A stretch of DNA of 59,393 nucleotides, counting the filler, from Stramenopiles sp. TOSAG23-3 (taxonomy: Eukaryota), in NCBI GenBank assembly GCA_900128585.1. It is 6 parts of 6 records of this genome, joined end to end, with 100 filler letters (N's around TTAATTAATTAA, not from the genome) between each part and the next. Parts side by side here need not be neighbours in the genome. Positions count along the whole stretch, not along the records: positions 35,746 to 53,421 come from LT642442.1; 5 more parts are not named here. One strand, given 5' to 3'. Shown in pieces: positions 1-52,911 of this stretch. Position 1 is the stretch's first letter; each line of letters begins with the position of its first letter. Made by a program: the position numbers and the translations under genes. Below the pieces are notes generated by a model. That model was not told where the DNA came from. It saw only the letters and a program-made list of their open reading frames with translations, and made no database searches.

Positions 1-71
<71 letters not shown>

Positions 72-141
72 AGAAAGAAGAAAGAACAAGAACAAGAACA
101 AGAACAAGAACAAGAACAAGAAGATGAAAGAAGAAGAAGAA
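1..141. repeat. compound purine microsatellite (AAAG)n / (ACAAGA)n / (AAG)n
   Basis: Tandem units read directly from the sequence. Confidence 0.95.
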
Positions 142-467
142 GATCCTCCTAACACAATTTTAAAATATTATTAAATAATATTTTTTTTTTTTTAATAAAT
201 AATAATATTCATAATAAGAAAGAAGAATTTTTTATAATAATTTGATATTTTTATTTATTTCTAGTGATGTACTTCAAATTGTAATTGAATGAACCAATTA
301 GTAATTTAGGGTATAGGAATTTTATGTGTATGTACCTAGAACAATTAGAGAAGCGAGAAGCTATCATTGGATTCATCATTTTTCGTACAGTGTATTGTTT
401 CTTTTTATTGTTGGACAGGAGTAGTACGGGCGGAAGGTGACCGACCGACGGACGGACCAAGACCCCG

Positions 468-3179: not shown

Positions 3180-3316
3180 AGAGAGGGGGGGGGGTTCTTT
3201 CACCAAAACCCCACGAAGCGACAAATTTTCTCTTCGTCCGTCCAATTTTAGAGAGTGGAGCTTTAAACATTTTTAAAAAAGATTTGAGCTTAATATTTCA
3301 CACATGTATTTATCTC

Positions 3317-4060
3317 TCACGAATTCGATTTCGAGAACATTTTCGCGAAGAATTTCGCAAACTCGTCTTTATAATTAATTCCTTTGACGGCCTCCTTGTC
3401 CAAGGCGAGGGCTTCCTTGGTCGCTTCTGAGTCTGGTTTTTGTTCGACCATTTCTTCGGTTTTCTTCTCTACTTCTTTCGATGCTTCCTGGTCCTTTTGT
3501 TCTACTTCGTGTGCTACCTTCACGTCTTCCGACGCAATGCTTGGATCGGTTGTGGGCAAGCTCATGATGCTGCTGTTGCTGAAAACGCCCGTCGCGCTTG
3601 TTGCGTCGACCGTGGGTGGACGAAGCTCGCTGGCGTGGACAGAGGACGCGTTCTCGCCGTCGTTCGGGATTCTTTTCTTTAGCGCACGGTGAAGGGACTC
3701 CCAATCGTGCTTGCTCTCCTCAGGCTCCTGCTTGGCGCCGTCGTTGCTGGGGCTCTTCTTGCCATTCAACTTGTCCATCATTTCCTTCACTTCTTTGGTC
3801 AGCCGGTCCACGGTGCCGTTTAACTTTAAATTCCCCTGGCGTTCGTCCCTCAATCGCGTTTCCAGGATGTCCGTAAGGGACGCATTCGTAGCATTTGGCA
3901 AGGCAATGCTCAAAAAGCCTTTTCCCATTCCCCGGAGCAAGCTCTGGCGCCGGGAGAGCCCAGAGGGGGTACTACCCTTCTGTTGGACCCCGTGAGCAAA
4001 GTTTCCCGTGCCACACAAACCCAAAAAGACGACAACCACCGAAAGTAACGTTCGATCCAT
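3317..4060 (-). CDS. hypothetical secreted protein (signal peptide, coiled-coil/low-complexity body)
   Basis: ORF 3317-4195. The ATG at 4060 gives MDRTLLSVVVVFLGLCGTGNFAHG, a signal-peptide-like start. Several N-x-S/T sites. Confidence 0.7.
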   Translation of the reverse strand: MDRTLLSVVVVFLGLCGTGNFAHGVQQKGSTPSGLSRRQSLLRGMGKGFLSIALPNATNASLTDILETRLRDERQGNLKLNGTVDRLTKEVKEMMDKLNGKKSPSNDGAKQEPEESKHDWESLHRALKKRIPNDGENASSVHASELRPPTVDATSATGVFSNSSIMSLPTTDPSIASEDVKVAHEVEQKDQEASKEVEKKTEEMVEQKPDSEATKEALALDKEAVKGINYKDEFAKFFAKMFSKSNS

Positions 4061-7401: not shown

Positions 7402-9201
7402 ATGTCGGAGGATTTCAATTGTGACAGTTTGTACTGCCTCCCGCCTGACTTTGTGAACCGTGCATTTTACTACAATCGAGAAAACCAAAGGTACGAGTCC
7501 GTGCTGGATGAAGATGTCATGGTGGACATGCGGAAAGACCCCTTTCATGTTTCGATGGGACAGTACGACATGAGCCCAAAGGATATCAAGCTGTTTGAGG
7601 AATTGACCGGCACTCGAACAAGTTTTTACACAAAATTCAAGAAACCGTTTCGAAAACTCTTGTTTGCTATCAGCACCTTTGTTGTGATGGAGCACGACAA
7701 CGAAATCCTCGCAAGATACGGGGACCCAGCCGATTCGTTCTTTATTGTTCTGCAAGGGAAGTTGGATTGTGTGATAAACGACAACCAAGGGGCGGCCGGC
7801 TCGGCCACGGATATCCTTACCACCGTGAAAGCAAAAAAGAAAAAGCAGTTTAGTTCAGAACGTGCTCTCAACTCTTCGAAACAAAAACGAAAAGTGGTCC
7901 GGGGCCAACGGCTGCTGCTAGAAAACGGGAAAAGGATGCGGCACCGGGAGCTAGAGATCAACGGCATTGTGGTGGGGACGTTCAAAGTCGGTGACTCGTT
8001 CGGGGAGACTGCGTTGGTGGGGACGAACTTTTTAACGCGTCGGGCGTCTGTTGTCTCGGGTGAAGGAACCAAGAACTGCCCGTGCGTTCTTATTCGGATT
8101 GCATCGAAAGATTACGAAAGGGTGAAGAAAGAAATAGAGCGACTAGAGAAGGAGGAAATGAGCCGGTTTCTTCACAGGGCAGATTTTTTGTCGCACTGGA
8201 GTCGTGATAGAATTGCGGCGTTGGTCAATGGGGCCCAGCTTTGTACATACCCAAGAAACTCTGTTGTAGAAAAGCCCGGAGACCTAGTGTCTTTTTGGGT
8301 TGTAAAATCCGGCACCGTTCGACGGTTGAAGCGCGTCAAAATTGAAGGGGAAAGCACGATCATGGAGATTCTGAATGCGTGCCGAGGGGACATCATTGGG
8401 GGCGCAGAACTGCTGCACTCTATATCTTACTGCACTGGGGTCTTGCTGACGTCCAAAACAATCCCGACTGAACTGATTAAACTAAGCATAGTGGCTTTTC
8501 AAATGATTACTGCCGACGTAGTCGCTTGCCAAAAGCTGAAAGACCTAGTGGGCTACAACAATTTTTTGAAATTCTTCCGTATAAAGGAGTACCATGAGCG
8601 TGAAAATGGAAAGAATCACTTGCGGCGGATTGCAGTTCCAAAACCATCAGCAGTCACGAAGGAAAAAGTAGACAGCGAAAATTGGGCAACGTTCTGTGAC
8701 AACATTTTCTTGTCGATTCCTTCACCACTGTCAACCGTCGAAATTAATGACCGCGTCCGGGAAAACGAGTACTACCACAACGCTCTGAAATACCTGGATA
8801 AGAAAATTGACGTACAGGCCACTTCTGCCTCCAAAGAAGGACTTCGAATATTCGCAGCAAGGCGGAAGGACGAGAAAGTAAACCGGCAGAGACGGGAAAT
8901 GTTTCAAACGGTCGCTAAAGGGAACCTTAAAGATCAACTCAGGAAGGCCAGGCGTGCCGCCCGTTCGGTGAAAACGAACGAGATAGACTTGAACAGTGAA
9001 ACCAGTGACAACGGTGAATGTTCGGACGACGATTTCATCGATGAATCTGCAGGGGGAAAATTGGAGTGTTCAGGTATGTTGGCACGCCCAAAATTGCATC
9101 CCAAGTCAATATGGTCTGGTGCCCCCCAAAATTCTCCAAGAAATAAAAGGTTGAAAAAGAACCTTCCTTTCAGAATGCTGAAAAAGGGGTCAATGCATTA
9201 A
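7402..9201 (+). CDS. tandem cyclic-nucleotide-binding-domain protein
   Basis: 599-aa ORF. CNB1 GDPADSFFIVLQG...GDSFGETAL...RRASV; CNB2 PGDLVSFWVVKSG...GDIIGG (degenerate). Confidence 0.85.
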   Translation: MSEDFNCDSLYCLPPDFVNRAFYYNRENQRYESVLDEDVMVDMRKDPFHVSMGQYDMSPKDIKLFEELTGTRTSFYTKFKKPFRKLLFAISTFVVMEHDNEILARYGDPADSFFIVLQGKLDCVINDNQGAAGSATDILTTVKAKKKKQFSSERALNSSKQKRKVVRGQRLLLENGKRMRHRELEINGIVVGTFKVGDSFGETALVGTNFLTRRASVVSGEGTKNCPCVLIRIASKDYERVKKEIERLEKEEMSRFLHRADFLSHWSRDRIAALVNGAQLCTYPRNSVVEKPGDLVSFWVVKSGTVRRLKRVKIEGESTIMEILNACRGDIIGGAELLHSISYCTGVLLTSKTIPTELIKLSIVAFQMITADVVACQKLKDLVGYNNFLKFFRIKEYHERENGKNHLRRIAVPKPSAVTKEKVDSENWATFCDNIFLSIPSPLSTVEINDRVRENEYYHNALKYLDKKIDVQATSASKEGLRIFAARRKDEKVNRQRREMFQTVAKGNLKDQLRKARRAARSVKTNEIDLNSETSDNGECSDDDFIDESAGGKLECSGMLARPKLHPKSIWSGAPQNSPRNKRLKKNLPFRMLKKGSMH

Positions 9202-9557: not shown

Positions 9558-10298
9558 TATTTAAATTATCTAGAACAATTTCGCCACAAAATAGTTTCCT
9601 GGCTCAACCAGCCGCGTTTCTTTTTACTCGCTCCAAGGTACCTATTAGCTTTTCGGTATGATTATGAGCGATTATAGGATGAAAAAAATATTACTATGTG
9701 TTACAAAGTAAAGTGAGCAAATAATTTCTACCCACGACGGGGTATTACAAAAAAAGTAAGACCATTTCTCTTCTTCTTTGTTCAAGAAGAGTCAAGAGCA
9801 GTACGCAGTACACATCGTCTAGGGAAACGGAGGAAGAGGAAAAAAAGACAAAGAAGAACGACAGTCGTCTCTCTTTTTATTATTTATTATCGAGAAGAAC
9901 TGCTGCTGTATGCTGTGTTCCTGGATGTAATATTTATTACTGTATTATGAAGTATACATTTATGGAGTTCAGAGAGTGCGTTGACTATTCGTCTTATTAT
10001 TCTTTCTTTCTTTCTTTCTTCATCATCTTTTTTTTTGTCCGTTCTATTTCTTTTTCTTTCTTTTATTATTATTATTATATTTATTATTGTTATAATATTT
10101 GAGTGGTACAAGTCAGTCGCTGAGGTTGTCGTCATTTTTTATAATAGAACGCCGCCGTCTTCTGTTTCGAGGGCGATCCTTCCGTTCCATTCGAAAAAGC
10201 CAATCATTTTCCAATTTAACTTCTCTTTCATCAGCATAGTATTTTTCTTACCTTCGTCCAGGTAGTTGGCTCCTTCCGCAGCTTCCTCCGAAAGTACA

Positions 10299-13187
10299 AT
10301 GGCACTGCAACAGCGCCAGGAAAGAAACCGGGTAAGCTTTGAAAAAAAAAACTTTCGGGTGCTAATCTTCGAGCCCGATGAACTTTCTCAAGGGAGGTTG
10401 GTGCACTACTTGAAAGGAATAAAAATAAATGGGGTTGCCCGGTTTAGTCGAGTAGAGTGTGCTTCAACTGTGAGAGCTGCTGAAGCTGTAGTAAGAAATG
10501 CTCGTATTACGGAACCTATCCATTTGGTGCTTGTCATGTTTGAGCACCCAACCCTGGAGGAGCTAGACCTGGTAAAGAAATTACAGCCCTGCACAGACTT
10601 TCCCGTTGTTGCACTATATGCGCCAGGAGCCTACGAGATTTTAAAAGAGAGCATTGATGAAGCGACAAAGTATGGATTGTACGACAGTTTTGAGGCGGCC
10701 TACTCGCTTATGGATCTCGGGGCGAAAAATTACGAGAAACAGTTTTCCTCTATAAACGCTGCGTACACGCCGATAACCTTCACAAGTGCTAAGAACGTCG
10801 ACAACGACTTGGGGGAACGAATTCTCCGGATCCTGTACCGGGTACACGTGGCCCAGAGGGAGTTTGACGTCGTTTTTGGCGATAGGGGGCGTCAGCAGAC
10901 TAAGTTGCAAATTCTTAAGCAGGAAACAGAAGAAGCAGAGGCGAAGAAAAACAGCGTACTGGGTAGAAAGAAGAAAAAGGCGTTTCCAGCGAAAGTTCTC
11001 GTTAAGAAAAAAAAGGTGACTAAGAAACGAGCAGATAGCATCGTAAAGGCTGTATTTGGCAGCGCAAACCCCGACATTAAGGAAAAAATTAAAGGAAAGA
11101 TGAAGATGCTCAGACTAAGTAGCTGGCATAAACGTTTTGGTCGAAGAGACAGCCAAGAAATGGGGGCTACGAAGAAAAAAGGCATAACAAATAGCCTGAA
11201 ACGAAAAATCCGAAGGAAGTCGATAGTCGCCAAAGTGACCTTACAGAAGAGAGAGCCCACCGAAGCTCCCAGAGACGTGCTACAAGAAACATTTTTGGAA
11301 ATTTCAGTGTCACAAGCTCGACGCTCATATAGTGACAGTCACCTTCACGATGGTTTGGATTGTATGAAAGATAGAAACTATCGACGCGCGGTGCATTTGT
11401 TTTCCACGGCACTGGTAAAAGACCCTGATCATTTCAACTGCAGGTTTTTCAGGGCAGTGGCTTACGGGATCGTCGGTCGCTACCGATGGGGGAGAGCAGA
11501 TATGATACTCTGCTTGAATAAAGAGCCCGAAAATTTAGTGTGCCGTTACAACCTTGCACTGTTGAGCTTGAACTGTCATATGCACAGGAGAGCTGCAAGG
11601 CACTTGAAAATAGCAGGAGAAATGGTCGAGACACTGAAAGAGCAGCGAAAAGACGTAGACCCAGCCGTCAGGGACGCAATTTGGAAGCTGCGAGGGTTGG
11701 TAAACAGGCGGCGTGGTGCTTACAACGAGGCCCGAAAGGATTATGTTTCTTTGTACCATGTAAATGAACACGAGGACCTCGCTCACTATCACGAAGACGA
11801 AATATTATACAGGACGAAGATGACTTCGACGCTGACAAAACGGGATGAAAACTCATTCTCGGCACTGCTGTCGTCTCTCCAAAGCGCTGTCTTAACGGAA
11901 GGAGAATTTCGCACGAGAGATGAACTTCAAATTATCGCAATTTTTTTGCATAAATTTCATTTCTACACCAAGCTTAGCGCAGCGTCCCAAAGGCTATTTT
12001 GTAAAGTAATACAGTACGAGGTTTTCGAGCCTGGAAATTGTATTTACAAGGCTGGAGACCCGTCCGATGGATTTCACATTGTGATGTCTGGTAGCGTCAC
12101 GCAGAAGTTGCCCATGGGCAGCAAGGGGCTTGAACATGTTGTGAACCACTTCTTCTCGGGGGACACGTTCGGTGCACTTGAAACCCTGGACCAAAAATCG
12201 CGCATCAACAGTGTGTACGTCAGGGAAGCCGCGGAATTGTTGTGGGTCAACCGAATACATTTTGAGTCGATTGGGCTCGACAAAGTCTTTTCAAATACCA
12301 TAGAATATAAGAAAAAAATCATCAAAGACAGTGGCATATTTGCCCACGCAGACATTCCGGAATCGTTTTATGACGATTGTGCCAAAGCTTCGATCTTCAA
12401 GAGCTACGATCCGGGGACTGCGATTGTTAAGCAGGGGAGAAAGCCGAGCAGTCTCTTTTTCATTGTTCAAGGGATTGCAAAAATTGTGCAAAAAGCTGAT
12501 GAAAGCGAAGAATTTGAGTACCAGAAGCGAAAGTTGCAAGAGGAGTATTCTCACTTTGAGCAGAACTACAACTACCACCATAAAACGAGAGACACCCACC
12601 TGAAAGAAAGCGGAAGTTTGCTCGTCAAAACAAACGTCGAAAAGAAAATTGAAAAGAAGGGCCAGCAGCTGCAGAACGTCACCAAGCGGGTTCGGCAACT
12701 GAAAGATGCGGAGCGGACGAGAAGGATGAAAGCTGCGGGGGGGAATATCTGGGGGGGTCTGGCACTTCTCTCGAACAAGAAAAAGGAGGAGGAGAAGAAG
12801 CCTGATAAAGAGTGTGAAATTGGCAAGCTTATGCCTCCTTCCTTTTTCGGCCACACTGCCATACTTTCCAGCCAGGAAGTGGAGCGGGCTAATATCATCG
12901 CGGAAACGCGAGTGATAACCCTACGACTGTATGCTTCACACCTGGACTTTACTTATTTCACAGGTAAATTTTTAAAAAGGCTTATGATGAGGACACCAGT
13001 AAAAGTTTTGGGGTTCAACTCCTTGGTAAAACGGTGTAAATTCGAGGCTGGGTGGGAGAAAATGCAGAAAAATATGATATTGGAAATCCCGAAAGGAAAA
13101 TGGGATTTAAAAAATGCTACTGTACAATCAGTAGCCGGTGGAAAATTTGCTGTACTCCCAAAACCGAAACGGCATGGCGTCATCTAG
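10299..13187 (+). CDS. receiver-like / TPR / tandem cyclic-nucleotide-binding-domain protein
   Basis: First ATG at 10299. N-terminal FRVLIFEPD...IHLVLVM...PVVALYA receiver-like pattern; TPR helices (A..LFSTAL..DP...RA.AY); CNB1 AGDPSDGFHIVMSG...GDTFG; CNB2 QGRKPSSLFFIVQG...SFFG. Confidence 0.85.
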   Translation: MALQQRQERNRVSFEKKNFRVLIFEPDELSQGRLVHYLKGIKINGVARFSRVECASTVRAAEAVVRNARITEPIHLVLVMFEHPTLEELDLVKKLQPCTDFPVVALYAPGAYEILKESIDEATKYGLYDSFEAAYSLMDLGAKNYEKQFSSINAAYTPITFTSAKNVDNDLGERILRILYRVHVAQREFDVVFGDRGRQQTKLQILKQETEEAEAKKNSVLGRKKKKAFPAKVLVKKKKVTKKRADSIVKAVFGSANPDIKEKIKGKMKMLRLSSWHKRFGRRDSQEMGATKKKGITNSLKRKIRRKSIVAKVTLQKREPTEAPRDVLQETFLEISVSQARRSYSDSHLHDGLDCMKDRNYRRAVHLFSTALVKDPDHFNCRFFRAVAYGIVGRYRWGRADMILCLNKEPENLVCRYNLALLSLNCHMHRRAARHLKIAGEMVETLKEQRKDVDPAVRDAIWKLRGLVNRRRGAYNEARKDYVSLYHVNEHEDLAHYHEDEILYRTKMTSTLTKRDENSFSALLSSLQSAVLTEGEFRTRDELQIIAIFLHKFHFYTKLSAASQRLFCKVIQYEVFEPGNCIYKAGDPSDGFHIVMSGSVTQKLPMGSKGLEHVVNHFFSGDTFGALETLDQKSRINSVYVREAAELLWVNRIHFESIGLDKVFSNTIEYKKKIIKDSGIFAHADIPESFYDDCAKASIFKSYDPGTAIVKQGRKPSSLFFIVQGIAKIVQKADESEEFEYQKRKLQEEYSHFEQNYNYHHKTRDTHLKESGSLLVKTNVEKKIEKKGQQLQNVTKRVRQLKDAERTRRMKAAGGNIWGGLALLSNKKKEEEKKPDKECEIGKLMPPSFFGHTAILSSQEVERANIIAETRVITLRLYASHLDFTYFTGKFLKRLMMRTPVKVLGFNSLVKRCKFEAGWEKMQKNMILEIPKGKWDLKNATVQSVAGGKFAVLPKPKRHGVI

Positions 13188-42234: not shown

Positions 42235-45200
42235 ATGACGTCCCTTGCTGTGCGGACCCCTCCCCGTTTAGTTCGAAACTCGTCTCACTATTTTTTAGGT
42301 AGCAACGGGCGGGCACGAGCAGAGCACCGCGGAGAACGAGCTAGATCGTTCAGTTTCGACGAGGAGGTCAAGGTACGAAATGATGAAATATACCATGCTT
42401 CACCAGAACGCACGGGCTCGAAGGAAACGCTGTCCCCGAGACAGAGTCACAGCCCTATGAAGCGGAGTCATAGCGTGGCACAAATGGGTCGCACCACTAG
42501 GAATAGAACCAACCGCCAACCGTCGTTTCCAGGGATATATGTGGATAGCAGTTTCAGAGAAGGCGCGCATAAACCGGGTGTACAGAATAGGAACAAGGTT
42601 CCTGCCAGTGCAAGGCTTGCCGAAGCGGACAAAGAAAACAGAGCAAATCGAACTGGGAACAACTCTAATTTTGAAACGGAAGACACCGCGGACTACGTTG
42701 TTGACGCTCTGTCCAGGGCGCGGAAAAAGAAAGCTGGGGGGCAACTGATGGTGCGTTGGATATTAGATAGGGACTGCCAGATTTGCTTTTCGTGCCACGA
42801 AGACTTTAGTGTAGTCCGGCGGAAACACCATTGCCGCGCGTGCGGCGGTGTCTTCTGCGGCACGTGTTCCCGGTGGAAAAAAGTCCTGCCGCACTTGGGT
42901 TATACAGACAAAGAAACGAGGGTATGTAAATGGTGCTACGAAGACCAGCATCTTGCAGAAAAGTGCGCTGGTGTCAAAACCTTAGCCAATGGTGGCGGCG
43001 ACAAAGAAAATTTGCACGATGGGGAGAATAGGCCCATTTTTTTCACAAAGGTTGCACCGAAGTGGGTCGATGATTCAATTTCGGACCATTGCCAGCAGTG
43101 CGCAAAGGATTTTGGACAATTCGTAAGACGTCATCATTGTCGTGGTTGTGGAGCTTTGACTTGCCACGCTTGTACAATAAGAAAAATAAGCATGCCCGAG
43201 TATGGCTACCTGACCCCGGTCAGGGCATGTGTCACGTGCTCGTCTCCGAAAATATTGTCCACATCGATTGTAAAGACATCAGGGGGTTCTATGGAAATTA
43301 CCGGTAGAAATTTAGGAGCTGTCGCTGAGACCATCAGCATCGAGGTTGGTTCCAGCGCGACCATATGTGAAGACGTAGAAGTTTTGATCCCTGGGCACAA
43401 AATTCGCTGTTCTGTTCCACCAGGAACGGGTAAGCAGAATCAAATTAACGTAACCGTATGCCGCCTGACGGGGGCCAGCGTTTATTGTTACGCCGAACCA
43501 GTTGTTGCAGCAACTACAGAGGTTTACACACGCGGGGGCGAGCTGACCGTAACTGGCGACAATTTTGGGTCTGAACGAGAATTACTTCTGGTGGAATGGT
43601 TTAATAGCAGCACTAACAATTGGTCCGAAGCTACGGGCGTTGAGATATTGGTACCGCACAGAATTTTTAAATGTAATGTCGGAGCCGGTGCTGGCAAGCA
43701 TGCGCTCTTAAGAGTGTCAGTTTCAAGCCAAAGCTCGAGAGGGACATTTTCTTACATGCCGCCCCAAATTGTGGAAACATCCCCAGTCTCAGGCGCCGGT
43801 GGCAAAATTGATATTGTAGGATTGAATTTTGGCGCGAAAGCAGAGGTTATGTCCGTGAGAGTCGGGCAGTTGGAGTGCTCAGATATTAAGATAGTTGTGC
43901 CCCACACGAAAGTTTCTTGTATCGTTCCACGCTGTCCCAACGACCAGGATGATGCCCAATTCAAGGAAGGGCAGAGCGATGGGGGCAGATTCTCTTACCA
44001 TTCTCGCAGACAGAGGCAACGCTCCAACAGCGGTGACACAGAGTGCCAATTAATTGTGAAGGTGGAAGGGCAGGAAGGTGCAGGTAAAGTATACTACGTG
44101 AACGAGAAACAAGTAGCGGCTGTAAAACTCGCCAAAAACGTGTCCAAAAGACAAAACATGTCAACGAGGCCATCGGGCATGCCCGCGGCGAACGATAGAC
44201 GACGGCATGTATTGGAAAAAGCCCCATGGTTACCGAGCGAGAATGTAATTAAATGTATGCTGTGCGAGGGTGCATTCGGGTGGCTAAACCGAAAGCACCA
44301 CTGTCGTAATTGCGGAATAGTTGTTTGCCGGGTCTGCAGTTCAAACAACCAATACGTCGCAGCTTACAGAAGCATGCAAAGGGTGTGCAAAAAGTGTTTC
44401 AGGGCAATTTTATCCGACCGTGAAGAAATGGAGGTCCTTCATGCAGAAATGGAACATGTGCATGCATTGCAATCGGTGGAAGTGGGAAAACAGGTGCAGT
44501 TGCAGCAACAGTTAAGTCTCCTAAGACTGCAATCGGCGGACGGAAATATGCCTGAAATAGAGCGTCTAGAAGCACTATTGAGAGAACAAGAACGGCGTGC
44601 GGACGGGAAGCAAAGGCGATACGATCAATTGCACGCACGCCTAAGGCACTTGCAGTTGATCGTTGATGGAGGATCTTCTGAAAAAATGCGATCCCAAAGG
44701 AGCAGAAAGCTATCCGATTCCGTTCCCAGATTTAGCCCCACGAACGGGACAAACCACCAATCAGCGTTCGTTTCGACGGCAGGGGGGGGCGTGGGCGAAG
44801 TGTCCCAGAACGACCAAAAACGTGCTTCCGTCTCGAGCCCTTCGGCTTCTCCGGAAAGTAACCTCGCACCCCAACGCGTGATGTCACGAAAATCGTCCCG
44901 AGCGTCGCCCCCAATACCGCTCCCTTTGCCGCGGGAAGTCATTGCTGTCGCAAAGGAGGAGGCTGAAAATTCGGCAAGTGAAGTGCTGGAGAGTTCTGGT
45001 CTTTTGCGTGGGCGTGCACTGTCGGACTACTCACTGTGTAATTACAGCCAATCGCCGGTAAGGTCATGGGTGGGGGCCGCTAAGCCTACTTTGAGGCAGG
45101 GTGATACGGGAAGAAAACGTGGGACGCCAGTGTGGATCAAACGGATGCGTCCAAGTGGAAGCGTTGCAAATGGGGGAAGTTCAAGGGGGTCGTTCGTGTC

Positions 45201-47151
45201 AGCTTCGTCCTCTTTGATCGTTGCTAAATTCAGAGGCAACAAGTGCGTTTTGAAAGAGCTGCCGATGACAGACGAAAAGATTAGGAAGAAAATTGAGAGA
45301 GAGGTGGCTGTTCGCGGAATGTTTCGCGCCCCGTTGCACCCTGGGGTTGCACCTCTTGACGCAGTATTTTATGACAATTCGACTGCAAGAATGTACATGC
45401 ACTACAAGCTGGATGAAGTAGGAACCATGGCGGATTGGTTGGAAGCTGCAACACCGGCGTCGTGGGACATTCAAAGTGTGTTCCAACAAATATTTGCTGC
45501 GTTAGCTTACGTGCACAGCCACCAAATAGCCCACCAAAACATAAATTTAGAATCAGTCTACATAGGAATTGTAGGAGATGCTTCAGGTGAACTTGCGCGA
45601 CCTTTCATTAGCGATTTTACGGACGCAGTCGTGGTCCTGTCTGGAGGGCATGCTCTTAAGAACGACGGACACCAATCCATGAAAAAAAGCAGGGGAAACG
45701 TAGAGAGTGGGAATGGAGCGAGTTTTTTGGCACCTGAAATTATAGCAGGCGGAGAGCCCACTTTTGCAAGCGATTTGTGGTCCGTAGGAGTAATGCTGTA
45801 CAAGGCAACGTTTGGAACCGACCAGCAGCCCGTACCCTTAGGTGGACACCATGCTCCCATCCCTGAGACTAAAAATCCGCGATTGCGAGAACTTTTGGCT
45901 TCCATTTTGCAGGTGGAACCAAAAAATCGTATGTCCGCCCAGGCTTGTACAGCCCATCCATACTTCACTGTTTCGTTTGCGAGGGAAATTCATGAAAGTG
46001 GAAACATAATTTCTACGGAGGAGAAGATCAATACCTTCCGTTCCCATCTGTCTACTTTACCGAGACCGGACGCGGTGCAATTCTTGCGCCTTAGAAGGTC
46101 GCATCTTGTCTACGACGTATTGGACCGTTTCAAATCCTTCTCGGTTGGCAATTTGCAGAAACGGTTGATTGTTATGTACGAGAACGAGCCCGGGGTTGAT
46201 GCCGGGGGTCTCACAAAAGATATGTTTTGTCGCTTTTTTGACGGCCTAATGTCTTCGAATCTTGGCTTCTTCGAGTGCTGTAGTGAAGCGTCCGCAGGGA
46301 AACGATCTAAGGGAAGGGTCTACCTGCCTTGTGGAAAAGCCAATGCTGCAAGCGATGCGGCTTTTGAAGCGCTCGGAAAGCTCTTGGCAAAAGTTATTTT
46401 TGACGGTCAAACTATTTGCGCCCCGTTTCCGGAGAGCTTTTTTAAGTGCCTACTCGGTTTGCCTGTTTCCTTTCGGGACCTGGAGGAATATGACCCAGAA
46501 TTATACCACCAACTCTATGCAAACATACTGAATAAGAGTCTGACCCCTGAGTATTCCCAAGCCCTTTCTCTGGACTTTTATGGACTTATAGAAAACGGAG
46601 AAGATAGAGTTGTCACGGAAAGTAATAAACGAGAATACTTGCGGCTTACTGCAAAACAGAAGCTGATAGGAGAGCGAGCGAAACAGTTTGAGATGCTAAA
46701 ACGCGGATTTAATGTATTTCGGTTTGAAAACCACCTGAAACGCTTCAATGCAGCTGATCTTCTGATGCTGGTATCGGGCCCCTCCGAAATAACCGCCGAA
46801 ATGGTCATACAAAACATCGACTTTTCTCACGGGAACTGGAGAAATAGTAAGACCCTTGAGCACATCCAGCAATACATTTTTTCACTCGATCGATCGAAAA
46901 TAAAAAGGTTCTTACAGTTTGCCACAGGCAGTCCAAATTTACCTCTGGGTGGCCTTGGGCAGGACTGCGAGGGAGATCAACCTTCAATGGGGAAAATTAC
47001 ATTCACAAGATTGCCAAAGAGTACGAGGTTACCGGAGGCGCACACATGTTTCAATTGCATTGATCTAAGCGATTATCAAGATTATAATTTGCTGAGAAGA
47101 AGTTTTGACATAGCAATTGAGAATTATGCCGAAACGTTTGATTTGCTTTGA
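42235..47151 (+). CDS. HECT E3 ubiquitin ligase with three FYVE fingers, three IPT/TIG domains and a kinase-like domain
   Basis: First ATG 42235. RKHHCR/RRHHCR three times; GG-x-[ML]-x-[IV]-x-G-x-N-[FL]-G three times; CVLKE/FLAPE/SDLWSVG; EPGVDAGGL, RFLQFATG, LPEAHTCFN. Confidence 0.93.
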   Translation: MTSLAVRTPPRLVRNSSHYFLGSNGRARAEHRGERARSFSFDEEVKVRNDEIYHASPERTGSKETLSPRQSHSPMKRSHSVAQMGRTTRNRTNRQPSFPGIYVDSSFREGAHKPGVQNRNKVPASARLAEADKENRANRTGNNSNFETEDTADYVVDALSRARKKKAGGQLMVRWILDRDCQICFSCHEDFSVVRRKHHCRACGGVFCGTCSRWKKVLPHLGYTDKETRVCKWCYEDQHLAEKCAGVKTLANGGGDKENLHDGENRPIFFTKVAPKWVDDSISDHCQQCAKDFGQFVRRHHCRGCGALTCHACTIRKISMPEYGYLTPVRACVTCSSPKILSTSIVKTSGGSMEITGRNLGAVAETISIEVGSSATICEDVEVLIPGHKIRCSVPPGTGKQNQINVTVCRLTGASVYCYAEPVVAATTEVYTRGGELTVTGDNFGSERELLLVEWFNSSTNNWSEATGVEILVPHRIFKCNVGAGAGKHALLRVSVSSQSSRGTFSYMPPQIVETSPVSGAGGKIDIVGLNFGAKAEVMSVRVGQLECSDIKIVVPHTKVSCIVPRCPNDQDDAQFKEGQSDGGRFSYHSRRQRQRSNSGDTECQLIVKVEGQEGAGKVYYVNEKQVAAVKLAKNVSKRQNMSTRPSGMPAANDRRRHVLEKAPWLPSENVIKCMLCEGAFGWLNRKHHCRNCGIVVCRVCSSNNQYVAAYRSMQRVCKKCFRAILSDREEMEVLHAEMEHVHALQSVEVGKQVQLQQQLSLLRLQSADGNMPEIERLEALLREQERRADGKQRRYDQLHARLRHLQLIVDGGSSEKMRSQRSRKLSDSVPRFSPTNGTNHQSAFVSTAGGGVGEVSQNDQKRASVSSPSASPESNLAPQRVMSRKSSRASPPIPLPLPREVIAVAKEEAENSASEVLESSGLLRGRALSDYSLCNYSQSPVRSWVGAAKPTLRQGDTGRKRGTPVWIKRMRPSGSVANGGSSRGSFVSASSSLIVAKFRGNKCVLKELPMTDEKIRKKIEREVAVRGMFRAPLHPGVAPLDAVFYDNSTARMYMHYKLDEVGTMADWLEAATPASWDIQSVFQQIFAALAYVHSHQIAHQNINLESVYIGIVGDASGELARPFISDFTDAVVVLSGGHALKNDGHQSMKKSRGNVESGNGASFLAPEIIAGGEPTFASDLWSVGVMLYKATFGTDQQPVPLGGHHAPIPETKNPRLRELLASILQVEPKNRMSAQACTAHPYFTVSFAREIHESGNIISTEEKINTFRSHLSTLPRPDAVQFLRLRRSHLVYDVLDRFKSFSVGNLQKRLIVMYENEPGVDAGGLTKDMFCRFFDGLMSSNLGFFECCSEASAGKRSKGRVYLPCGKANAASDAAFEALGKLLAKVIFDGQTICAPFPESFFKCLLGLPVSFRDLEEYDPELYHQLYANILNKSLTPEYSQALSLDFYGLIENGEDRVVTESNKREYLRLTAKQKLIGERAKQFEMLKRGFNVFRFENHLKRFNAADLLMLVSGPSEITAEMVIQNIDFSHGNWRNSKTLEHIQQYIFSLDRSKIKRFLQFATGSPNLPLGGLGQDCEGDQPSMGKITFTRLPKSTRLPEAHTCFNCIDLSDYQDYNLLRRSFDIAIENYAETFDLL

Positions 47152-47699
47152 CGACTTTAATTGAGCAGTTTGGATGCTGTGATCATGTAAAAAAACGGAT
47201 CCGTTGCAGTTTTCTTTATTAGTGCTATACCAATATATTAGACGACTATAGTTTAACAATATTTTCTTTGCTGTGGATAACAAATAAATAATTTGGAGCC
47301 TATCGCCTCCTTCTATTTCAAAAAAAATATCTATTAGTTGCCTTGGTACAGGACTACTATAAAATACCGGAGGTACCATACAGCAGGAATAATACTGAAT
47401 GAACAAACGAAAAACTTCTCATTTAGTACGCTCCGGTCCGGTCGGGAACCTGTATTATACCGGGTACAGTGAGTAGTAGAATTCAAATTGTTTTATTAAT
47501 TGTAGTATTTTTTTATGCTGGCTATTACCGGTAACTTATTACAAATCACCACGGCAAACCAGAAATCGCCGGGTACAGATCGAATAGTTTTTATCACATT
47601 TATAACCGTGCCTGAAAAATCGAGCAGCCACCACACCGACCGTTTATAACCCAACACTCGATTAATTCGTACTTTCGACCGACGGTGGAACACAACCGC

Positions 47700-51118: not shown

Positions 51119-52065
51119 TGGCCAATGTAGATTTTGAGATAGCTGCGGATACAATACTTTCTCTATGGTTTGCGGTGCATATATATTGCATAACTCTCCA
51201 AACGATACACACGGTTTTATGGGACACCGACAGACGAAAAGCGGCAGGCACGCTCATGCTTTTTTCTCCCTCCCTCCACAACATGCAAGTAGTCGCAGCA
51301 AAAAATACTGCACCTTCTCTCTCCTCCTCCTCTTCTTCCTCATCGATCATCATCATATTTTTTTTTAACTTCTTCTGGCAATATTTTAAATAGACCTACT
51401 GTGTTAGTCCTACAGTATATTACTAATATAAAATAATATCTATTTTTTATCAACAAGCCACACCACACACCACCGTATATCAATATATAAAAACCAAGAA
51501 AAAAAAAATAATAACAGTTTTTCTTCCTTCTCCTTCTCCTTCCTCCTCCTTACTCCTTTCTCCTTTCATGTTTTGCGATAAAATAATTCAATGTTTTTTT
51601 GTATTTGTAATAATGTCCTATATAAATTGGTATAGTGAAAATAAAATAGCAAGCACTTTTTTTGGTTAAAATAATTAGTGTTTTCGTTATTTTACCTGTT
51701 ATTCAATGCTATTTTGTGTAACACTAACTCCCTGCTAGTTTTTTAATAATAATAATAAAATGATGAAAAAAAGTTCACACGTGTGAACACAAAACACACC
51801 ACACACACATATTTTACAACATAGTCCTATTAATAATAATAAAAAATATTGGAGTTCTCTATATATTCGGGCTACTTTTTCTCTTCGTCTGGGCAGTGAA
51901 CCAAGTAGAGATAAAAACTATTTCTGTACTTACCAAATGGTCGTAAATTGCACACCCTTATCCATACGTTTATGCTTCTCTGACTGCGAGATAAATACAA
52001 CAGAACTAGAATTTTAAGCAGGAAACGTGTCTGTGGAATGTGAATCGTACAACAATTTGCGCAAT

Positions 52066-52911
52066 ATGAGGGAACAGTTGTTGCAGCGAACTGTGGCCCG
52101 GTTGACCAGCTACGCCGGGGTTGGTTTGCATAGTGGAAAGCCTGTCTCTCTCAAGATATATCCAGCGGATGTGGATACTGGGATTAAATTTGTGTCCCCT
52201 TCCGGTACCGTGACAGCAAATTACCGGAACGTTGTTGACACTACATTATGCACTGTTCTAGGTTTGGGTAAATTTCGTTTGGCGATGGTTGAACACCTTT
52301 TGGCGGCGTTTTCAATATGCGATATACACAACGCAATAGTTTCAGTGTCTGCACAAGAGCTTCCAATATTGGATGGTAGTGCAGCACCTTACTGCAGTAA
52401 TATTGCTGGAACAGAGTGCCAGCCACCAACACCATTGCGGAAAATAAAAATACTGAAGCCTGTACAAGCAGTGCATGGCGATAGTTCGGCGTCACTTTTA
52501 CCGTCGGAAGATGGTTTTTCAATCAGTGTGGACGTGGATTTTTCCCCAAAATTGCCGAGGCAGCGGTTGCGTTACTCGAAAGAAGAGTTTCTGGAGCACG
52601 TCTCTTCTGCTCGAACATTTACATTCGAGTCCTGGATCAGCGACATGAGGGCGGCAGGGATGGCCCTAGGAGGTAGCTATGAAAATGCACTTGTCTTCGA
52701 CGATAACGGCGACATTGTCAATCCTCCTGTGCGGTTTCCCGATGAATGGGCAAGGCACAAATTGTTGGATTGCATTGGGGACTTGTCGTTGGTTGGTGCA
52801 CCAATCGAAGGGCATTATGTTGCTCATAAGCCAGGGCACACGATCAATTTTCATTTGGTGAAACAAATCTTTGACAGTCCACCGAACACAGTAGCCATAC
52901 TTGAGTCGTGA
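52066..52911 (+). CDS. lpxC: UDP-3-O-acyl-N-acetylglucosamine deacetylase
   Basis: QRT...GVGLHSG, VEHLLAA, ELPILDGSA, ARTF, RHKLLDCIGDL, GHTIN: the zinc-ligand and catalytic motifs are present. First ATG 52066. Confidence 0.95.
   Translation: MREQLLQRTVARLTSYAGVGLHSGKPVSLKIYPADVDTGIKFVSPSGTVTANYRNVVDTTLCTVLGLGKFRLAMVEHLLAAFSICDIHNAIVSVSAQELPILDGSAAPYCSNIAGTECQPPTPLRKIKILKPVQAVHGDSSASLLPSEDGFSISVDVDFSPKLPRQRLRYSKEEFLEHVSSARTFTFESWISDMRAAGMALGGSYENALVFDDNGDIVNPPVRFPDEWARHKLLDCIGDLSLVGAPIEGHYVAHKPGHTINFHLVKQIFDSPPNTVAILES

What the first reader, a model, noticed from the sequence alone, without database searches (positions are those of the whole stretch)
42235..47151. FYVE-FYVE-IPTx3-FYVE-coiled coil-pseudokinase-HECT: a one-chain endosomal ubiquitination module
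Seen in one uninterrupted ORF: three FYVE fingers with intact R[RK]HHCR (~42760, ~43060, ~44230); three IPT/TIG repeats between FYVE2 and FYVE3 with no signal peptide or TM; a coiled coil; a kinase fold; and a HECT domain with its catalytic Cys (HTCFN, 47041-47055). The kinase keeps the beta3 Lys (CVLK), alphaC Glu, APE and DLWS, but HRDLKxxN reads HQNINLES (45532) and DFG reads DFT (45613). Established: FYVE binds PI3P, and loss of the catalytic Asp defines pseudokinases. Inference: a PI3P-targeted E3 whose pseudokinase, directly abutting the HECT N-lobe, acts as a nucleotide-sensing or allosteric switch, perhaps on phagosomes. I know no characterised protein with this architecture.
Basis: partly seen in the sequence, partly recalled or inferred. 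Interest (0 to 1): 0.76.

Follow-up and report, generated by a model that had tools for sequence, protein, structure and literature searches.

The report
PI3P-targeted pseudokinase-HECT ubiquitin ligase
A marine single-celled eukaryote encodes a ubiquitin ligase with three lipid-binding fingers and a dead kinase domain, a new variant of a kinase-ligase fusion recently characterised in Leishmania.

Summary
One uninterrupted + strand gene (ATG 42235, stop 47151; 1638 aa) encodes FYVE-FYVE-IPTx3-FYVE, two long helices, a kinase fold and a C-terminal HECT domain. Every motif sits at the stated coordinates. It is not a misassembly. A 4962-nt metatranscriptome contig is colinear with 42264-47225, and five other 1696-aa copies and seven full or partial relatives share the architecture.

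The kinase lacks the HRD Asp and the catalytic-loop Lys in 11 of 11 and 9 of 9 subfamily sequences. Its glycine-rich loop is replaced by a disordered insert. Yet it is as conserved as the HECT domain, so it is a maintained pseudokinase.

"No characterised protein" is only partly right. The kinase-HECT core is an old, widespread protist cassette (38 of 38 sampled relatives; 33 of 38 keep the Asp). Its Leishmania member TKUL was characterised in 2025 as a ligase controlled by an allosteric, autophosphorylating kinase. The FYVE-IPT targeting module and the dead kinase are new. Verdict: a real, new variant of a known kind. PI3P targeting, allosteric control and any phagosome role remain inferred.

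The parts
42235..47151 (+). Whole coding sequence, 1638 aa plus stop. Residue numbers in this report count from the GTG at 42061, so Met59 is the start.
   Evidence: ORF and translation. First ATG and upstream in-frame stop. N-termini of P0003 and P0004 align to Met59.
42264..47225 (+). Stretch covered by a single 4962-nt metatranscriptome contig (run X1), with no gap and no joint. It marks the approximate transcript extent.
   Evidence: table 8. Contigs of X2 and X6 end at 47218 and 47191. Contigs cannot prove strand or ends.
42235..42735 (+). N-terminal Ser/Arg-rich region with no Pfam family (aa 59-225).
   Evidence: No Pfam hit (piece 4). 15-43% identity to relatives.
42736..42948 (+). FYVE finger 1 (aa 226-296), with WILD, RKHHCR and RVC.
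   Evidence: 57-87% identity to relatives.
43042..43248 (+). FYVE finger 2 (aa 328-396), with WVDD, RRHHCR and RAC.
43249..44100 (+). Three tandem IPT/TIG Ig-like domains (aa 397-480, 481-568, 569-680). The third carries a disordered insert at about aa 628-657.
   Evidence: Each repeat passes the Pfam cut-off alone. AlphaFold2 block-mean pLDDT is 76-94, mostly 83 or more. The best Foldseek match is plexin A1 IPT3-IPT6, 5l7n, E 3e-11, then MET IPT.
44206..44409 (+). FYVE finger 3 (aa 716-783), with WLPS (WxPD in the deeper branch), RKHHCR and RVC.
44416..44667 (+). Two long helices (aa 786-824 and 830-869), a helical hairpin or coiled coil.
   Evidence: AlphaFold2. Heptad test. 71-84% identity in the near branch and 27-34% in the deeper branch.
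44668..44973 (+). Low-complexity linker. It contains a G8 run at 44782-44789.
   Evidence: 19-40% identity. G8 run. Copies with one more G are split into 933-aa and 783-aa products.
44974..45978 (+). Pseudokinase domain (aa 972-1306). The catalytic loop reads HQNINLES at 45532-45555, and DFG reads DFT at 45613-45621. The beta3 Lys (CVLK, 45244-45255), the alphaC Glu and APE are kept.
   Evidence: Pfam Pkinase 4.9e-19. Motif tables. Kinase fold Z 24.3 to Wee1 5vc4, rmsd 2.7 over 242 residues. The best solved kinase by sequence is 9gmp_A, E 1.4e-14.
45046..45198 (+). Disordered low-complexity insert (aa 996-1046) at the place of the glycine-rich loop, between strand beta1 and strands beta2/beta3.
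   Evidence: pLDDT under 50 for model residues 37-87. The insert is variable in length and sequence in all relatives.
45982..47148 (+). HECT domain, both lobes (aa 1308-1696). The catalytic Cys1663 is at 47047-47049, and Phe is at -4 from the C-terminus.
   Evidence: Pfam 9.7e-56. ITCH 3tug_A E 6e-40 from aa 1308. HUWE1~Ub 6xz1_A Z 37.7, rmsd 3.0 over 364 residues. Cys and Phe kept in 9 of 9.

Best explanation
The gene encodes a cytosolic HECT-type ubiquitin ligase of the kinase-HECT (TKUL-like) family.

Targeting. Its N-terminal targeting module has been replaced by three FYVE fingers that flank a rigid array of three IPT/TIG domains. Inferred: the three FYVE fingers, possibly doubled by the helical region if it dimerises, give avid binding to PI3P-rich membranes (endosomal, vacuolar, autophagic or phagosomal). 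The HECT domain then ubiquitinates membrane-associated proteins there.

Kinase fold. It is fused back to back with the HECT N-lobe and is catalytically dead. The catalytic Asp and Lys are gone, the Asn is mostly gone, and the glycine-rich loop is replaced by a disordered insert. Even so, it is kept under the same constraint as the ligase.

Mechanism (inferred by homology). In the characterised Leishmania relative, autophosphorylation by the kinase is required for ligase activity. Here I propose that the fold is retained as the non-catalytic regulatory partner of the HECT domain. The switch can no longer be thrown in cis. It is either locked, or thrown in trans by another kinase acting on the long Ser/Thr-bearing activation segment.

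My odds:
- real single gene: 0.97
- active HECT ligase: 0.85
- kinase catalytically dead: 0.85
- PI3P-membrane targeting: 0.75
- pseudokinase acts mainly as a regulator of the HECT domain: 0.45
For: Shown here:
- Architecture and motifs.
- One colinear RNA-library contig covers 42264-47225 with 0 gaps and 0 joints.
- Of 13 members of the 90% cluster, 5 are full 1696-aa copies from other assemblies.
- Of 107 hits, only 8 (P0002-P0009) carry FYVE+TIG+Pkinase+HECT. They are 42-100% identical to the window protein.
- HRD Asp is present in 0 of 9 aligned subfamily sequences, plus 0 of 2 further fragments. It is present in 33 of 38 sampled remoter kinase-HECT proteins. The catalytic-loop Lys is 0 of 9 against 33 of 38. 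The Asn is 4 of 9 against 33 of 38.
- The residue replacing the Asp varies (N, N, R, R, C, C, C, T, S), so it has no conserved chemistry.
- Against the deeper branch, the pseudokinase is 51-53% identical, the HECT domain 48-51%, and the linkers 10-34%.
- WxxD, R(R/K)HHCR and RVC are kept in the three FYVE fingers of the relatives.
- HECT Cys is kept in 9 of 9 and Phe at -4 in 9 of 9.
- The kinase-HECT model has pLDDT 83.7 and pTM 0.67. Both folds are confirmed against solved structures.
- The spacing from the end of the kinase (HPYF) to the HECT DAGG motif is 76-94 residues in 46 of 47 sequences.
- One BLASTP alignment runs through kinase and HECT to P0176: 26% identity, E 2e-56. The kinase domain of P0176 matches PDB 9gmp_A almost residue for residue (E 3e-182).

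From papers, passages only:
- TKUL's 'integrated regulatory kinase domain' allows allosteric inhibition of the ligase (PMC13196369).
- The FYVE-plus-RING ligase Pib1 sits on endosome and vacuole membranes, presumably through PI3P (PMC7055007).
Against: - Nothing was tested at the bench. PI3P binding is read from motifs only.
- FYVE3 has Ser instead of the WxxD Asp in 4 of 8 sequences, and FYVE2 has RAC instead of RVC in the near branch.
- The FYVE fingers are modelled only at pLDDT 57-76 from an 8-sequence alignment.
- The beta3 Lys (8 of 9), alphaC Glu (9 of 9) and DFG Asp (9 of 9) are kept. Nucleotide binding or a trace of activity is therefore not excluded.
- The relative placement of the kinase and HECT domains was not tested. 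No per-pair error map is returned by the fold tool, and the complex job never ran.
- I could not read the TKUL paper itself. I do not know which surfaces and phosphosites make its switch. The transfer of mechanism rests on 26% identity.
- The 38 remoter relatives were picked by me from the 150 best of 8923 hits because they spanned both domains. They are a sample, not a census.
- The organism and its cell biology are unknown.
Confidence: 0.6

Rival explanations
1. Substrate receptor. The pseudokinase is mainly the substrate-docking module of the ligase. Its C-lobe and activation segment hold the protein that the HECT domain ubiquitinates, as free-standing Tribbles pseudokinases do for the COP1 ligase (recalled knowledge). 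It does not act as an on/off regulator.
For: The C-lobe substrate-side elements are invariant in the subfamily: APE, DxW..G and the YKATFG stretch. The ATP-side elements have decayed. Subfamily-specific invariant residues cluster in alphaC-beta4, alphaD-alphaE and alphaF-alphaG. A Tribbles 2 chain (7upm_A) appears among the PDB sequence hits, but only for the last 84 residues and at E 1.6e-7.
Against: The only characterised relative uses the kinase as a regulator of the ligase. The IPT array and the N-terminal region are equally plausible substrate binders. No test here separates docking from regulation, and the two roles are not exclusive.
Confidence: 0.25
2. Nucleotide sensor. The pseudokinase still binds ATP or another nucleotide without turning it over. 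Occupancy changes the HECT domain's activity.
For: The beta3 Lys is kept in 8 of 9, the alphaC Glu in 9 of 9 and the DFG Asp in 9 of 9. TKUL's ligase is inhibited by an ATP-site kinase inhibitor (passage), so pocket occupancy can be coupled to the HECT domain in this family.
Against: The glycine-rich loop that clamps the phosphates is replaced by a disordered, non-conserved insert of 30-100 residues. One orthologue has lost the beta3 Lys (P0003, CVLN). The Mg-binding Asn is kept in only 4 of 9.
Confidence: 0.15
3. Still an active, atypical kinase. A catalytic residue has moved, for instance to the invariant Asp or Glu of the subfamily-specific G-I-x-G-D-A-x-G-E hairpin. The TKUL-type autophosphorylation switch still works.
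For: The subfamily has a hairpin between the catalytic loop and DFG that is 7 residues longer than usual: 27 residues in 9 of 9, against a median of 20. It carries invariant acidic residues. Kinases with displaced catalytic residues exist (recalled).
Against: Three catalytic-loop residues are lost together, and the replacement of the Asp is chemically random across orthologues. There is no glycine-rich loop. The hairpin lies at the beta7-beta8 position, which in kinase folds is not next to the gamma-phosphate (established fold knowledge; not measured on the model).
Confidence: 0.08
4. Artefact. Two or more genes have been fused by misassembly or read-through, or the gene is decaying.
For: Other assemblies hold the same locus as 933-aa and 783-aa products, and one gene model of 796 aa has a different C-terminus.
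Against: The split is explained by one extra G in the G8 run at 44782-44789. The window, five other 1696-aa copies and RNA-library contigs of X1 and X2 spanning that run without a gap all have the open form. Six full-length relatives and one N-terminally truncated one (P0005), at 42-65% identity, keep the whole chain in one frame. All catalytic and structural domains are conserved well above the linkers.
Confidence: 0.03

Closest known systems
Leishmania mexicana TKUL (HECT12, LmxM.34.4000; L. major LmjF35.4000), a TPR-kinase-HECT ligase. Fokkens et al., Mol Cell 2025 (not held; known to me only through passages in PMC13196369 and bioRxiv 10.64898/2026.05.08.723729, and through PDB 9gmp).
   Same: The kinase fold is fused directly to a HECT domain. 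It is colinear over both domains: one BLASTP alignment gives 26% identity, E 2e-56 to P0176. The kinase domain of P0176 is near-identical to 9gmp_A. 9gmp_A is the best solved kinase for the window's domain (E 1.4e-14, next best 1.7e-9). Helix-rich sequence lies upstream of the kinase (by eye). The kinase fold acts as a regulator of the ligase in TKUL.
   Different: TKUL has TPR repeats at the N-terminus, an intact HGDLKPSN catalytic loop and DFG, and needs autophosphorylation. The window protein has FYVE-FYVE-IPTx3-FYVE instead, and no catalytic Asp or Lys. It has an insert in place of the glycine-rich loop and a longer hairpin before DFG. The two lie in different, well-supported clades: TPR clade 100/99, FYVE-IPT clade 100/100.
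[quoted passage not shown] 2013, PMC3673628, passage).
   Same: They share the same cassette. 38 of 38 sampled relatives carry Pkinase plus HECT. Named members come from Tieghemostelium, Pharyngomonas, Spironema, Phytomonas and Anaeramoeba.
   Different: Their N-terminal modules are RCC1, TPR, ankyrin, LRR+filamin, Kelch, RanBP zinc finger or beta-helix. 0 of 38 have FYVE or TIG. 33 of 38 keep the catalytic Asp.
Yeast Pib1, a FYVE-RING ubiquitin ligase of endosome and vacuole membranes (PMC7055007, passages).
   Same: A FYVE-mediated, presumably PI3P-dependent, placement of an E3 ligase on endolysosomal membranes. This is what the window protein most likely works like at its targeting end.
   Different: Pib1 has one FYVE finger and a RING domain, which forms no thioester. 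It has no IPT, kinase fold or HECT. There is no sequence relationship outside the FYVE finger.
NEDD4-family, HUWE1 and UBR5 HECT domains.
   Same: The bilobal HECT fold: ITCH E 6e-40 and HUWE1 7e-36; 6xz1_A Z 37.7. The catalytic Cys and the Phe at -4 are present.
   Different: About 21-28% identity only. The window protein has no C2, WW, UBA or WWE modules. Its kinase fold sits where those ligases carry their own regulatory linkers.
Tribbles pseudokinases working with the COP1 ligase (recalled knowledge, not tested here).
   Same: A catalytically dead kinase fold that serves a ubiquitin ligase.
   Different: Tribbles is a separate polypeptide that binds a RING ligase through a C-terminal tail. 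Here the fold is fused in cis to a HECT domain and descends from the kinase-HECT family, not from Tribbles.

Membership tests
HECT E3 ubiquitin ligases (PF00632) | HECT domain by profile and by fold | tested here: met
   Pfam 9.7e-56, 190 bits against a cut-off of 23.9. 6xz1_A Z 37.7, rmsd 3.0 over 364 residues.
HECT E3 ubiquitin ligases (PF00632) | Catalytic Cys in the C-lobe and Phe at -4 (the importance of the Phe is recalled) | tested here: met
   Cys1663 in HTCFN. Cys kept in 9 of 9 and Phe at -4 in 9 of 9 subfamily sequences.
HECT E3 ubiquitin ligases (PF00632) | Forms a ubiquitin thioester and transfers ubiquitin | not testable with these tools
   Needs an E1/E2/ubiquitin assay with a Cys1663 mutant as control.
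PI3P-binding FYVE fingers (PF01363) | WxxD, R(R/K)HHCR and RVC motifs plus eight zinc-binding Cys | tested here: met
   All three fingers carry R(R/K)HHCR and 8 Cys. Deviations: FYVE3 has WLPS in 4 of 8 sequences, and FYVE2 has RAC in the near branch.
PI3P-binding FYVE fingers (PF01363) | Binds PI3P and localises to PI3P membranes | not testable with these tools
   Needs a liposome or localisation assay.
IPT/TIG domains (PF01833) | Three Ig-like IPT repeats | tested here: met
   29.3, 21.3 and 29.8 bits against a cut-off of 20.9. Plexin A1 IPT3-6 is the best fold match, E 3e-11.
Catalytically competent eukaryotic protein kinases (PF00069) | Kinase fold | tested here: met
   Pfam 4.9e-19. Wee1 5vc4 Z 24.3 and CDK2 Z 24.2 over model residues 26-347.
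Catalytically competent eukaryotic protein kinases (PF00069) | HRD catalytic Asp and the catalytic-loop Lys and Asn | tested here: not met
   Asp in 0 of 11, Lys in 0 of 9, Asn in 4 of 9 subfamily sequences. The window reads HQNINLES.
Catalytically competent eukaryotic protein kinases (PF00069) | Glycine-rich GxGxxG loop | tested here: not met
   No GxGxxG match in the protein (regex gave none). A disordered insert lies between beta1 and beta2. The loop is also degenerate in the wider family.
Catalytically competent eukaryotic protein kinases (PF00069) | beta3 Lys, alphaC Glu and DFG Asp | tested here: met
   Kept in 8 of 9, 9 of 9 and 9 of 9. The window reads DFT, so the Gly is lost.
Kinase-HECT (TKUL-like) ligases | Kinase fold followed at once by a HECT domain, homologous to TKUL over both | tested here: met
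   One alignment to P0176 over query 99-737, E 2e-56. P0176 matches 9gmp_A. The gap between the folds is about 10 residues or fewer. The kinase-to-HECT spacing is 76-94 residues in 46 of 47 sequences.
Kinase-HECT (TKUL-like) ligases | TPR repeats at the N-terminus (the T of TKUL) | tested here: not met
   No TPR in Pfam. The protein lies outside the TPR clade.
Kinase-HECT (TKUL-like) ligases | Active kinase whose autophosphorylation switches the ligase on | tested here: not met
   By motif only: the catalytic Asp and Lys are absent. Biochemistry was not testable here.
Pib1-like FYVE ligases | FYVE finger together with a RING domain | tested here: not met
   No RING family among the Pfam hits. 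The ligase domain is HECT.

The most novel reading that the evidence does not exclude
This would be the first natural 'dead-kinase' version of the kinase-HECT switch. The autophosphorylation step of TKUL-type ligases has been handed to an outside kinase acting on the long activation segment, or to a bound ligand. The ligase then fires only where two signals meet: PI3P, read by three FYVE fingers, and a trans-acting kinase signal. That makes it a coincidence detector for ubiquitination on endosomal, autophagic or phagosomal membranes of marine protists. The cytosolic IPT array would act as the cargo-binding arm. The family also shows the mirror case, with a live kinase and a Cys-less HECT (P0166, P0173). 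This suggests that the two folds form an obligate structural pair in which either partner can become the regulator.
Probability: 0.2. Interest if true: 0.7.

Novelty: new variant of a known kind. Interest (0 to 1): 0.5.

Why it matters
HECT ligases have no active-site pocket, and how they are switched is an active question. The 2025 TKUL work showed that a fused kinase can be the switch.

This protein and its relatives are a conserved natural experiment on that finding. The ligase and the kinase fold are both kept, but kinase chemistry is lost. That separates the structural coupling from the phosphotransfer.

It would also be the first FYVE-targeted HECT ligase. FYVE-RING ligases are known; my searches found no described FYVE-HECT ligase.

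On the practical side, public annotation calls full copies 'serine/threonine protein kinase'. Some assemblies split the gene at a G-run. Both mislead.

The limits are plain. The organism is unidentified and uncultured as far as I can tell. Every functional statement is inferred.

Tried and rejected
Complex prediction
The queue was full, and one search gave no usable answer. It never ran, so the kinase-HECT interface is untested.

Searches for context
- Whole-genome search: no genome is held for this window.
- Earlier findings of this scan: nothing.
- Naming the organism: the copine neighbour has its best named relatives at 46% in animals. The Atlas look-up of the LpxC neighbour gave only bacterial clusters. 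Neither places the lineage.
- Viral origin: a scan of viral contigs gave 17 loci, all matching FYVE fingers only, with matches of about 140-440 nt in giant-virus bins. None had the pseudokinase or the full chain. Rejected.
- FYVE-IPT module in other proteins: a search with aa 220-780 gave 5 hits. Only P0417 (523 aa, 61% identical) carries FYVE plus TIG, and it is probably a fragment of a subfamily member. Only proteins of 308-982 aa were searched.

Literature
- The phrases 'kinase-HECT', 'HECT-kinase', 'Pkinase-HECT' and 'kinase and HECT' occur in 0 papers.
- 'HECT' plus 'pseudokinase' gave 213 papers. Of the 20 listed, none is about a fused protein (listing only).
- The Dictyostelium kinome paper has no 'HECT'.
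- A Dictyostelium ubiquitin review describes five HECT ligases, none with a kinase (passages).
- Leishmania HECT2 is UBE3C-like and is not the kinase fusion.
- The Mol Cell TKUL paper is not held. No supplements were consulted.

Other points
- The Atlas lead to a Pkinase+HECT cluster labelled mostly Streptophyta (score 0.90) was not followed up.
- Stretches without cover in runs X6 and X12 carry no meaning.
- A grouping of the FYVE-IPT clade with the RanBP-zinc-finger proteins appeared in the quick tree (88). It did not hold in the careful tree, so I make no claim that the dead kinase predates that split.


Full report
WHAT IS THERE

The + strand frame is open from 42061 to the stop at 47149-47151. 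An in-frame stop lies just upstream, and the first ATG is at 42235. The N-termini of relatives P0003 and P0004 align there. Residue numbers below count from 42061.

Pfam finds HECT (9.7e-56), FYVE (4e-48, three stretches), Pkinase (4.9e-19) and TIG (1.5e-14). When the IPT region is cut in three, each piece passes Pfam's own cut-off: 29.3, 21.3 and 29.8 bits against 20.9. The approximate FYVE coordinates are the WxxD starts, and the R(R/K)HHCR motifs lie 60 nt further on.

No 19-residue window exceeds a Kyte-Doolittle mean of 1.16.

AlphaFold2 on aa 220-880 (8-sequence alignment, mean pLDDT 69) models the IPT array at block-mean pLDDT mostly 83-94. It gives two long helices at 786-824 and 830-869. 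Their heptad pattern is moderate: shuffles reach the observed value 339 and 32 times in 2000. The best fold matches of that model are plexin A1 IPT3-IPT6 and the MET IPT domains.

IS IT ONE GENE?

Yes, on four lines of evidence.

- The stretch is held by marine metatranscriptome runs of several studies. In run X1 a single 4962-nt contig is colinear with 42264-47225, with one base difference, no gap and no joint. Contigs of X2 and X6 end at 47218 and 47191, that is 40-75 nt past the stop. Contigs cannot prove strand or ends, and DNA can contaminate RNA libraries. Even so, a contig that starts 29 nt after the ATG and stops just after the stop codon looks like a transcript.
- The 90% cluster of this protein has 13 members, and 5 of them are full 1696-aa copies from other assemblies.
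- Two 933-aa members and one 783-aa member are the two halves of the same frame. The 933-aa form leaves the frame exactly at the G8 run at 44782-44789, in the way one extra G would cause. The X1 and X2 contigs cross that run without a gap.
- Seven relatives at 42-65% identity keep the chain in one frame, one of them (P0005) cut at its N-terminus.

The window itself is eukaryotic and gene-dense with long open frames. It holds PHD, cNMP-binding, dual-specificity phosphatase, papain, JmjC, Kelch, ion channel, LpxC and copine genes. I could not name the lineage.

THE KINASE FOLD IS DEAD, AND KEPT

I aligned the window's kinase-HECT part with 8 subfamily sequences and 38 remoter kinase-HECT proteins (alignment A2). 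The subfamily and the remoter proteins compare as follows.

| Position | Subfamily | Remoter proteins |
|---|---|---|
| HRD Asp | 0 of 9 (N, N, R, R, C, C, C, T, S) | 33 of 38 |
| Catalytic-loop Lys | 0 of 9 | 33 of 38 |
| Catalytic-loop Asn | 4 of 9 | 33 of 38 |
| beta3 Lys | 8 of 9 | 36 of 38 |
| alphaC Glu | 9 of 9 | 34 of 38 |
| DFG Asp | 9 of 9 | 33 of 38 |

Two further subfamily fragments read HRS and HRC, so 11 of 11 lack the Asp.

The glycine-rich loop is degenerate in the whole family. In the subfamily its place, between strand beta1 and strands beta2/beta3, is taken by a low-complexity insert of roughly 30-100 residues. That insert is modelled as disordered, with pLDDT under 50 for model residues 37-87.

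The subfamily also has a hairpin between the catalytic loop and DFG that is 7 residues longer: 27 residues in 9 of 9, against a median of 20. It has an invariant G-I-x-G-D-A-x-G-E pattern.

Despite this decay the domain is conserved like the ligase. Against the deeper branch (P0006-P0009) it is 51-53% identical, the HECT domain 48-51%, the FYVE fingers 57-65%, and the linkers 10-34%. A fold that has lost its chemistry yet evolves as slowly as the enzyme next to it is a maintained pseudokinase.

THE LIGASE LOOKS LIVE

- The catalytic Cys (HTCFN) is kept in 9 of 9, and the Phe four residues from the C-terminus in 9 of 9.
- The closest solved HECT domains by sequence are ITCH (6e-40), HUWE1 and the NEDD4 family.
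- The AlphaFold2 model of aa 960-1696 (47-sequence alignment, pLDDT 83.7, pTM 0.67) matches HUWE1~ubiquitin 6xz1_A at Z 37.7, rmsd 3.0 over 364 residues.
- Its other half matches Wee1 and CDK2 at Z 24.
- The kinase alignment ends at model residue 347 and the HECT alignment starts at 351-357. HECT structures align by sequence from aa 1308. The two folds are therefore joined with essentially no linker.
- Across all 47 sequences the spacing from the kinase's last motif to the HECT DAGG motif is 76-94 residues in 46.

THE CORE IS A KNOWN, OLD CASSETTE

A full HMMER search with aa 960-1696 gave 8923 hits at E up to 0.001, and 185 at 1e-30 or better. Many of the best 150 align in one stretch through both domains at 25-35% identity. 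I took 38 of those 150.

- All 38 carry Pkinase and HECT.
- Their N-terminal modules differ: RCC1, TPR, ankyrin, LRR plus filamin, Kelch, RanBP zinc finger and beta-helix.
- None has FYVE or TIG.
- Named members come from a dictyostelid, two heteroloboseans or kinetoplastids, a hemimastigote and a metamonad. The cassette therefore spans eukaryotic supergroups.

It has been seen before. The trypanosomatid kinome paper of 2005 noted LmjF35.4000 with TPR, kinase and HECT (PMC1266030, passage). [quoted passage not shown]

One member is now characterised.

[quoted passage not shown] It cites Fokkens et al., Mol Cell 2025 (PMC13196369, passages).
- I could not obtain the primary paper.
- The best solved kinase for the window's domain is 9gmp_A (E 1.4e-14; next best AMPK 1.7e-9).
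- That chain is almost identical to residues 725-1004 of P0176, a TPR-kinase-HECT protein in my alignment (E 3e-182).
- The window's core aligns to P0176 in one piece over both domains, at 26% identity and E 2e-56.

In a maximum-likelihood tree of the core (47 rows, LG+G4, midpoint root for drawing only):

- The FYVE-IPT sequences form a clade (100/100).
- Its sister is the Spironema protein P0155 (100/99), which also lacks the Asp.
- The TPR/TKUL clade is separate (100/99).
- Other Asp losses lie elsewhere.

The dead kinase is therefore a derived state that arose more than once in this family.

WHAT IS NEW HERE

The FYVE-FYVE-IPTx3-FYVE module is confined to this small clade. Of 107 hits to the full protein, only 8 have the whole set of families. 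A search with the module alone found only one FYVE+TIG protein, probably a fragment of the same clade. Viral contigs gave FYVE fingers only.

My literature searches found no FYVE-HECT ligase and no kinase-dead kinase-HECT ligase. The library lacks most subscription papers.

HOW IT MOST LIKELY WORKS

Shown: the parts, their conservation and their homology.

Inferred, step by step:

1. The three FYVE fingers have intact R(R/K)HHCR, WxxD-type and RVC motifs and hydrophobic residues just before the basic motif. They bind PI3P with avidity and place the protein on endosomal, vacuolar or autophagic membranes. The FYVE-RING ligase Pib1 is placed on endosomes and the vacuole in this way (PMC7055007, passages).
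2. The HECT domain ubiquitinates proteins there.
3. The pseudokinase is the relic of a TKUL-type switch. It stays as the non-catalytic partner of the HECT N-lobe and is either locked or operated in trans. Its activation segment is long (42-82 residues) and carries 6-28 Ser/Thr/Tyr.
4. The IPT array is a rigid spacer or a binding arm. Nothing here says which.

The rivals are a substrate-docking role, a nucleotide sensor, a still-active atypical kinase, and an artefact. They are weighed in their own sections.

VERDICT

The pseudokinase call and the allosteric idea stand up well, and the latter now has a published precedent. For the same reason the claim of no characterised relative falls for the core. 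Nucleotide sensing is doubtful, and phagosomes are a guess.

This is a new variant of a known kind. It is of moderate interest as a natural separation of kinase fold from kinase chemistry in a kinase-switched HECT ligase, and as the first candidate FYVE-targeted HECT ligase.

Noticed in passing
window 44782-44789: A run of eight G lies inside the low-complexity linker of the gene. Other public assemblies of the same locus give 933-aa and 783-aa products. The 933-aa form leaves the frame here as one extra G would cause. This is either a homopolymer sequencing error or a real frameshift allele.
   Followed up: yes
relatives P0166 (Anaeramoeba ignava KAJ5075310.1) and P0173, alignment A2: These show the mirror image of the finding. 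They are LRR-filamin-kinase-HECT proteins with an intact kinase catalytic loop (HEDLKPEN, HRDLKPEN). Ser or Thr stands in place of the HECT catalytic Cys. They look like a live kinase fused to a dead HECT.
   Followed up: partly
window 45559-45612 (aa 1167-1184): A subfamily-specific hairpin lies between the catalytic loop and DFG. It is 7 residues longer than in the rest of the family and has an invariant G-I-x-G-D-A-x-G-E...P pattern. Its role is unexplained.
   Followed up: partly
cluster member P0112 (796 aa): A gene model of the same locus from a eukaryote protein collection starts inside the second long helix. It ends with an unrelated 34-residue tail after the conserved HGNWRN. This points to another indel or a wrongly predicted intron in that assembly.
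   Followed up: no
window 52027-52911 (+): A complete LpxC (UDP-3-O-acyl-GlcNAc deacetylase, Pfam 6.7e-82) sits among eukaryotic genes. The nearest Atlas clusters are all bacterial. It may be a lipid A pathway gene of organellar or transferred origin.
   Followed up: partly
window 7402-9201 and 10266-13187 (+): Two neighbouring long ORFs on the same strand both carry cyclic-nucleotide-binding domains. They may be paralogues or exons of one gene.
   Followed up: no
window 1-4000: G+C is 57-58% here, against 38-52% in the rest of the window. Several long overlapping ORFs lie on both strands around a PHD-finger gene.
   Followed up: no
loci L001-L017 (IMG/VR giant-virus bins): FYVE fingers 31-49% identical to those of this protein occur on contigs binned as giant viruses. 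They match the FYVE fingers only, with nothing of the kinase or HECT part.
   Followed up: no
sequences upstream of the kinase in the remoter kinase-HECT proteins: By eye, many remoter relatives have a charged, heptad-like helical stretch and an H/Y-P-E-L motif in the 50-90 residues before the kinase. The conserved cassette may therefore be coiled coil-kinase-HECT. This was not quantified.
   Followed up: no
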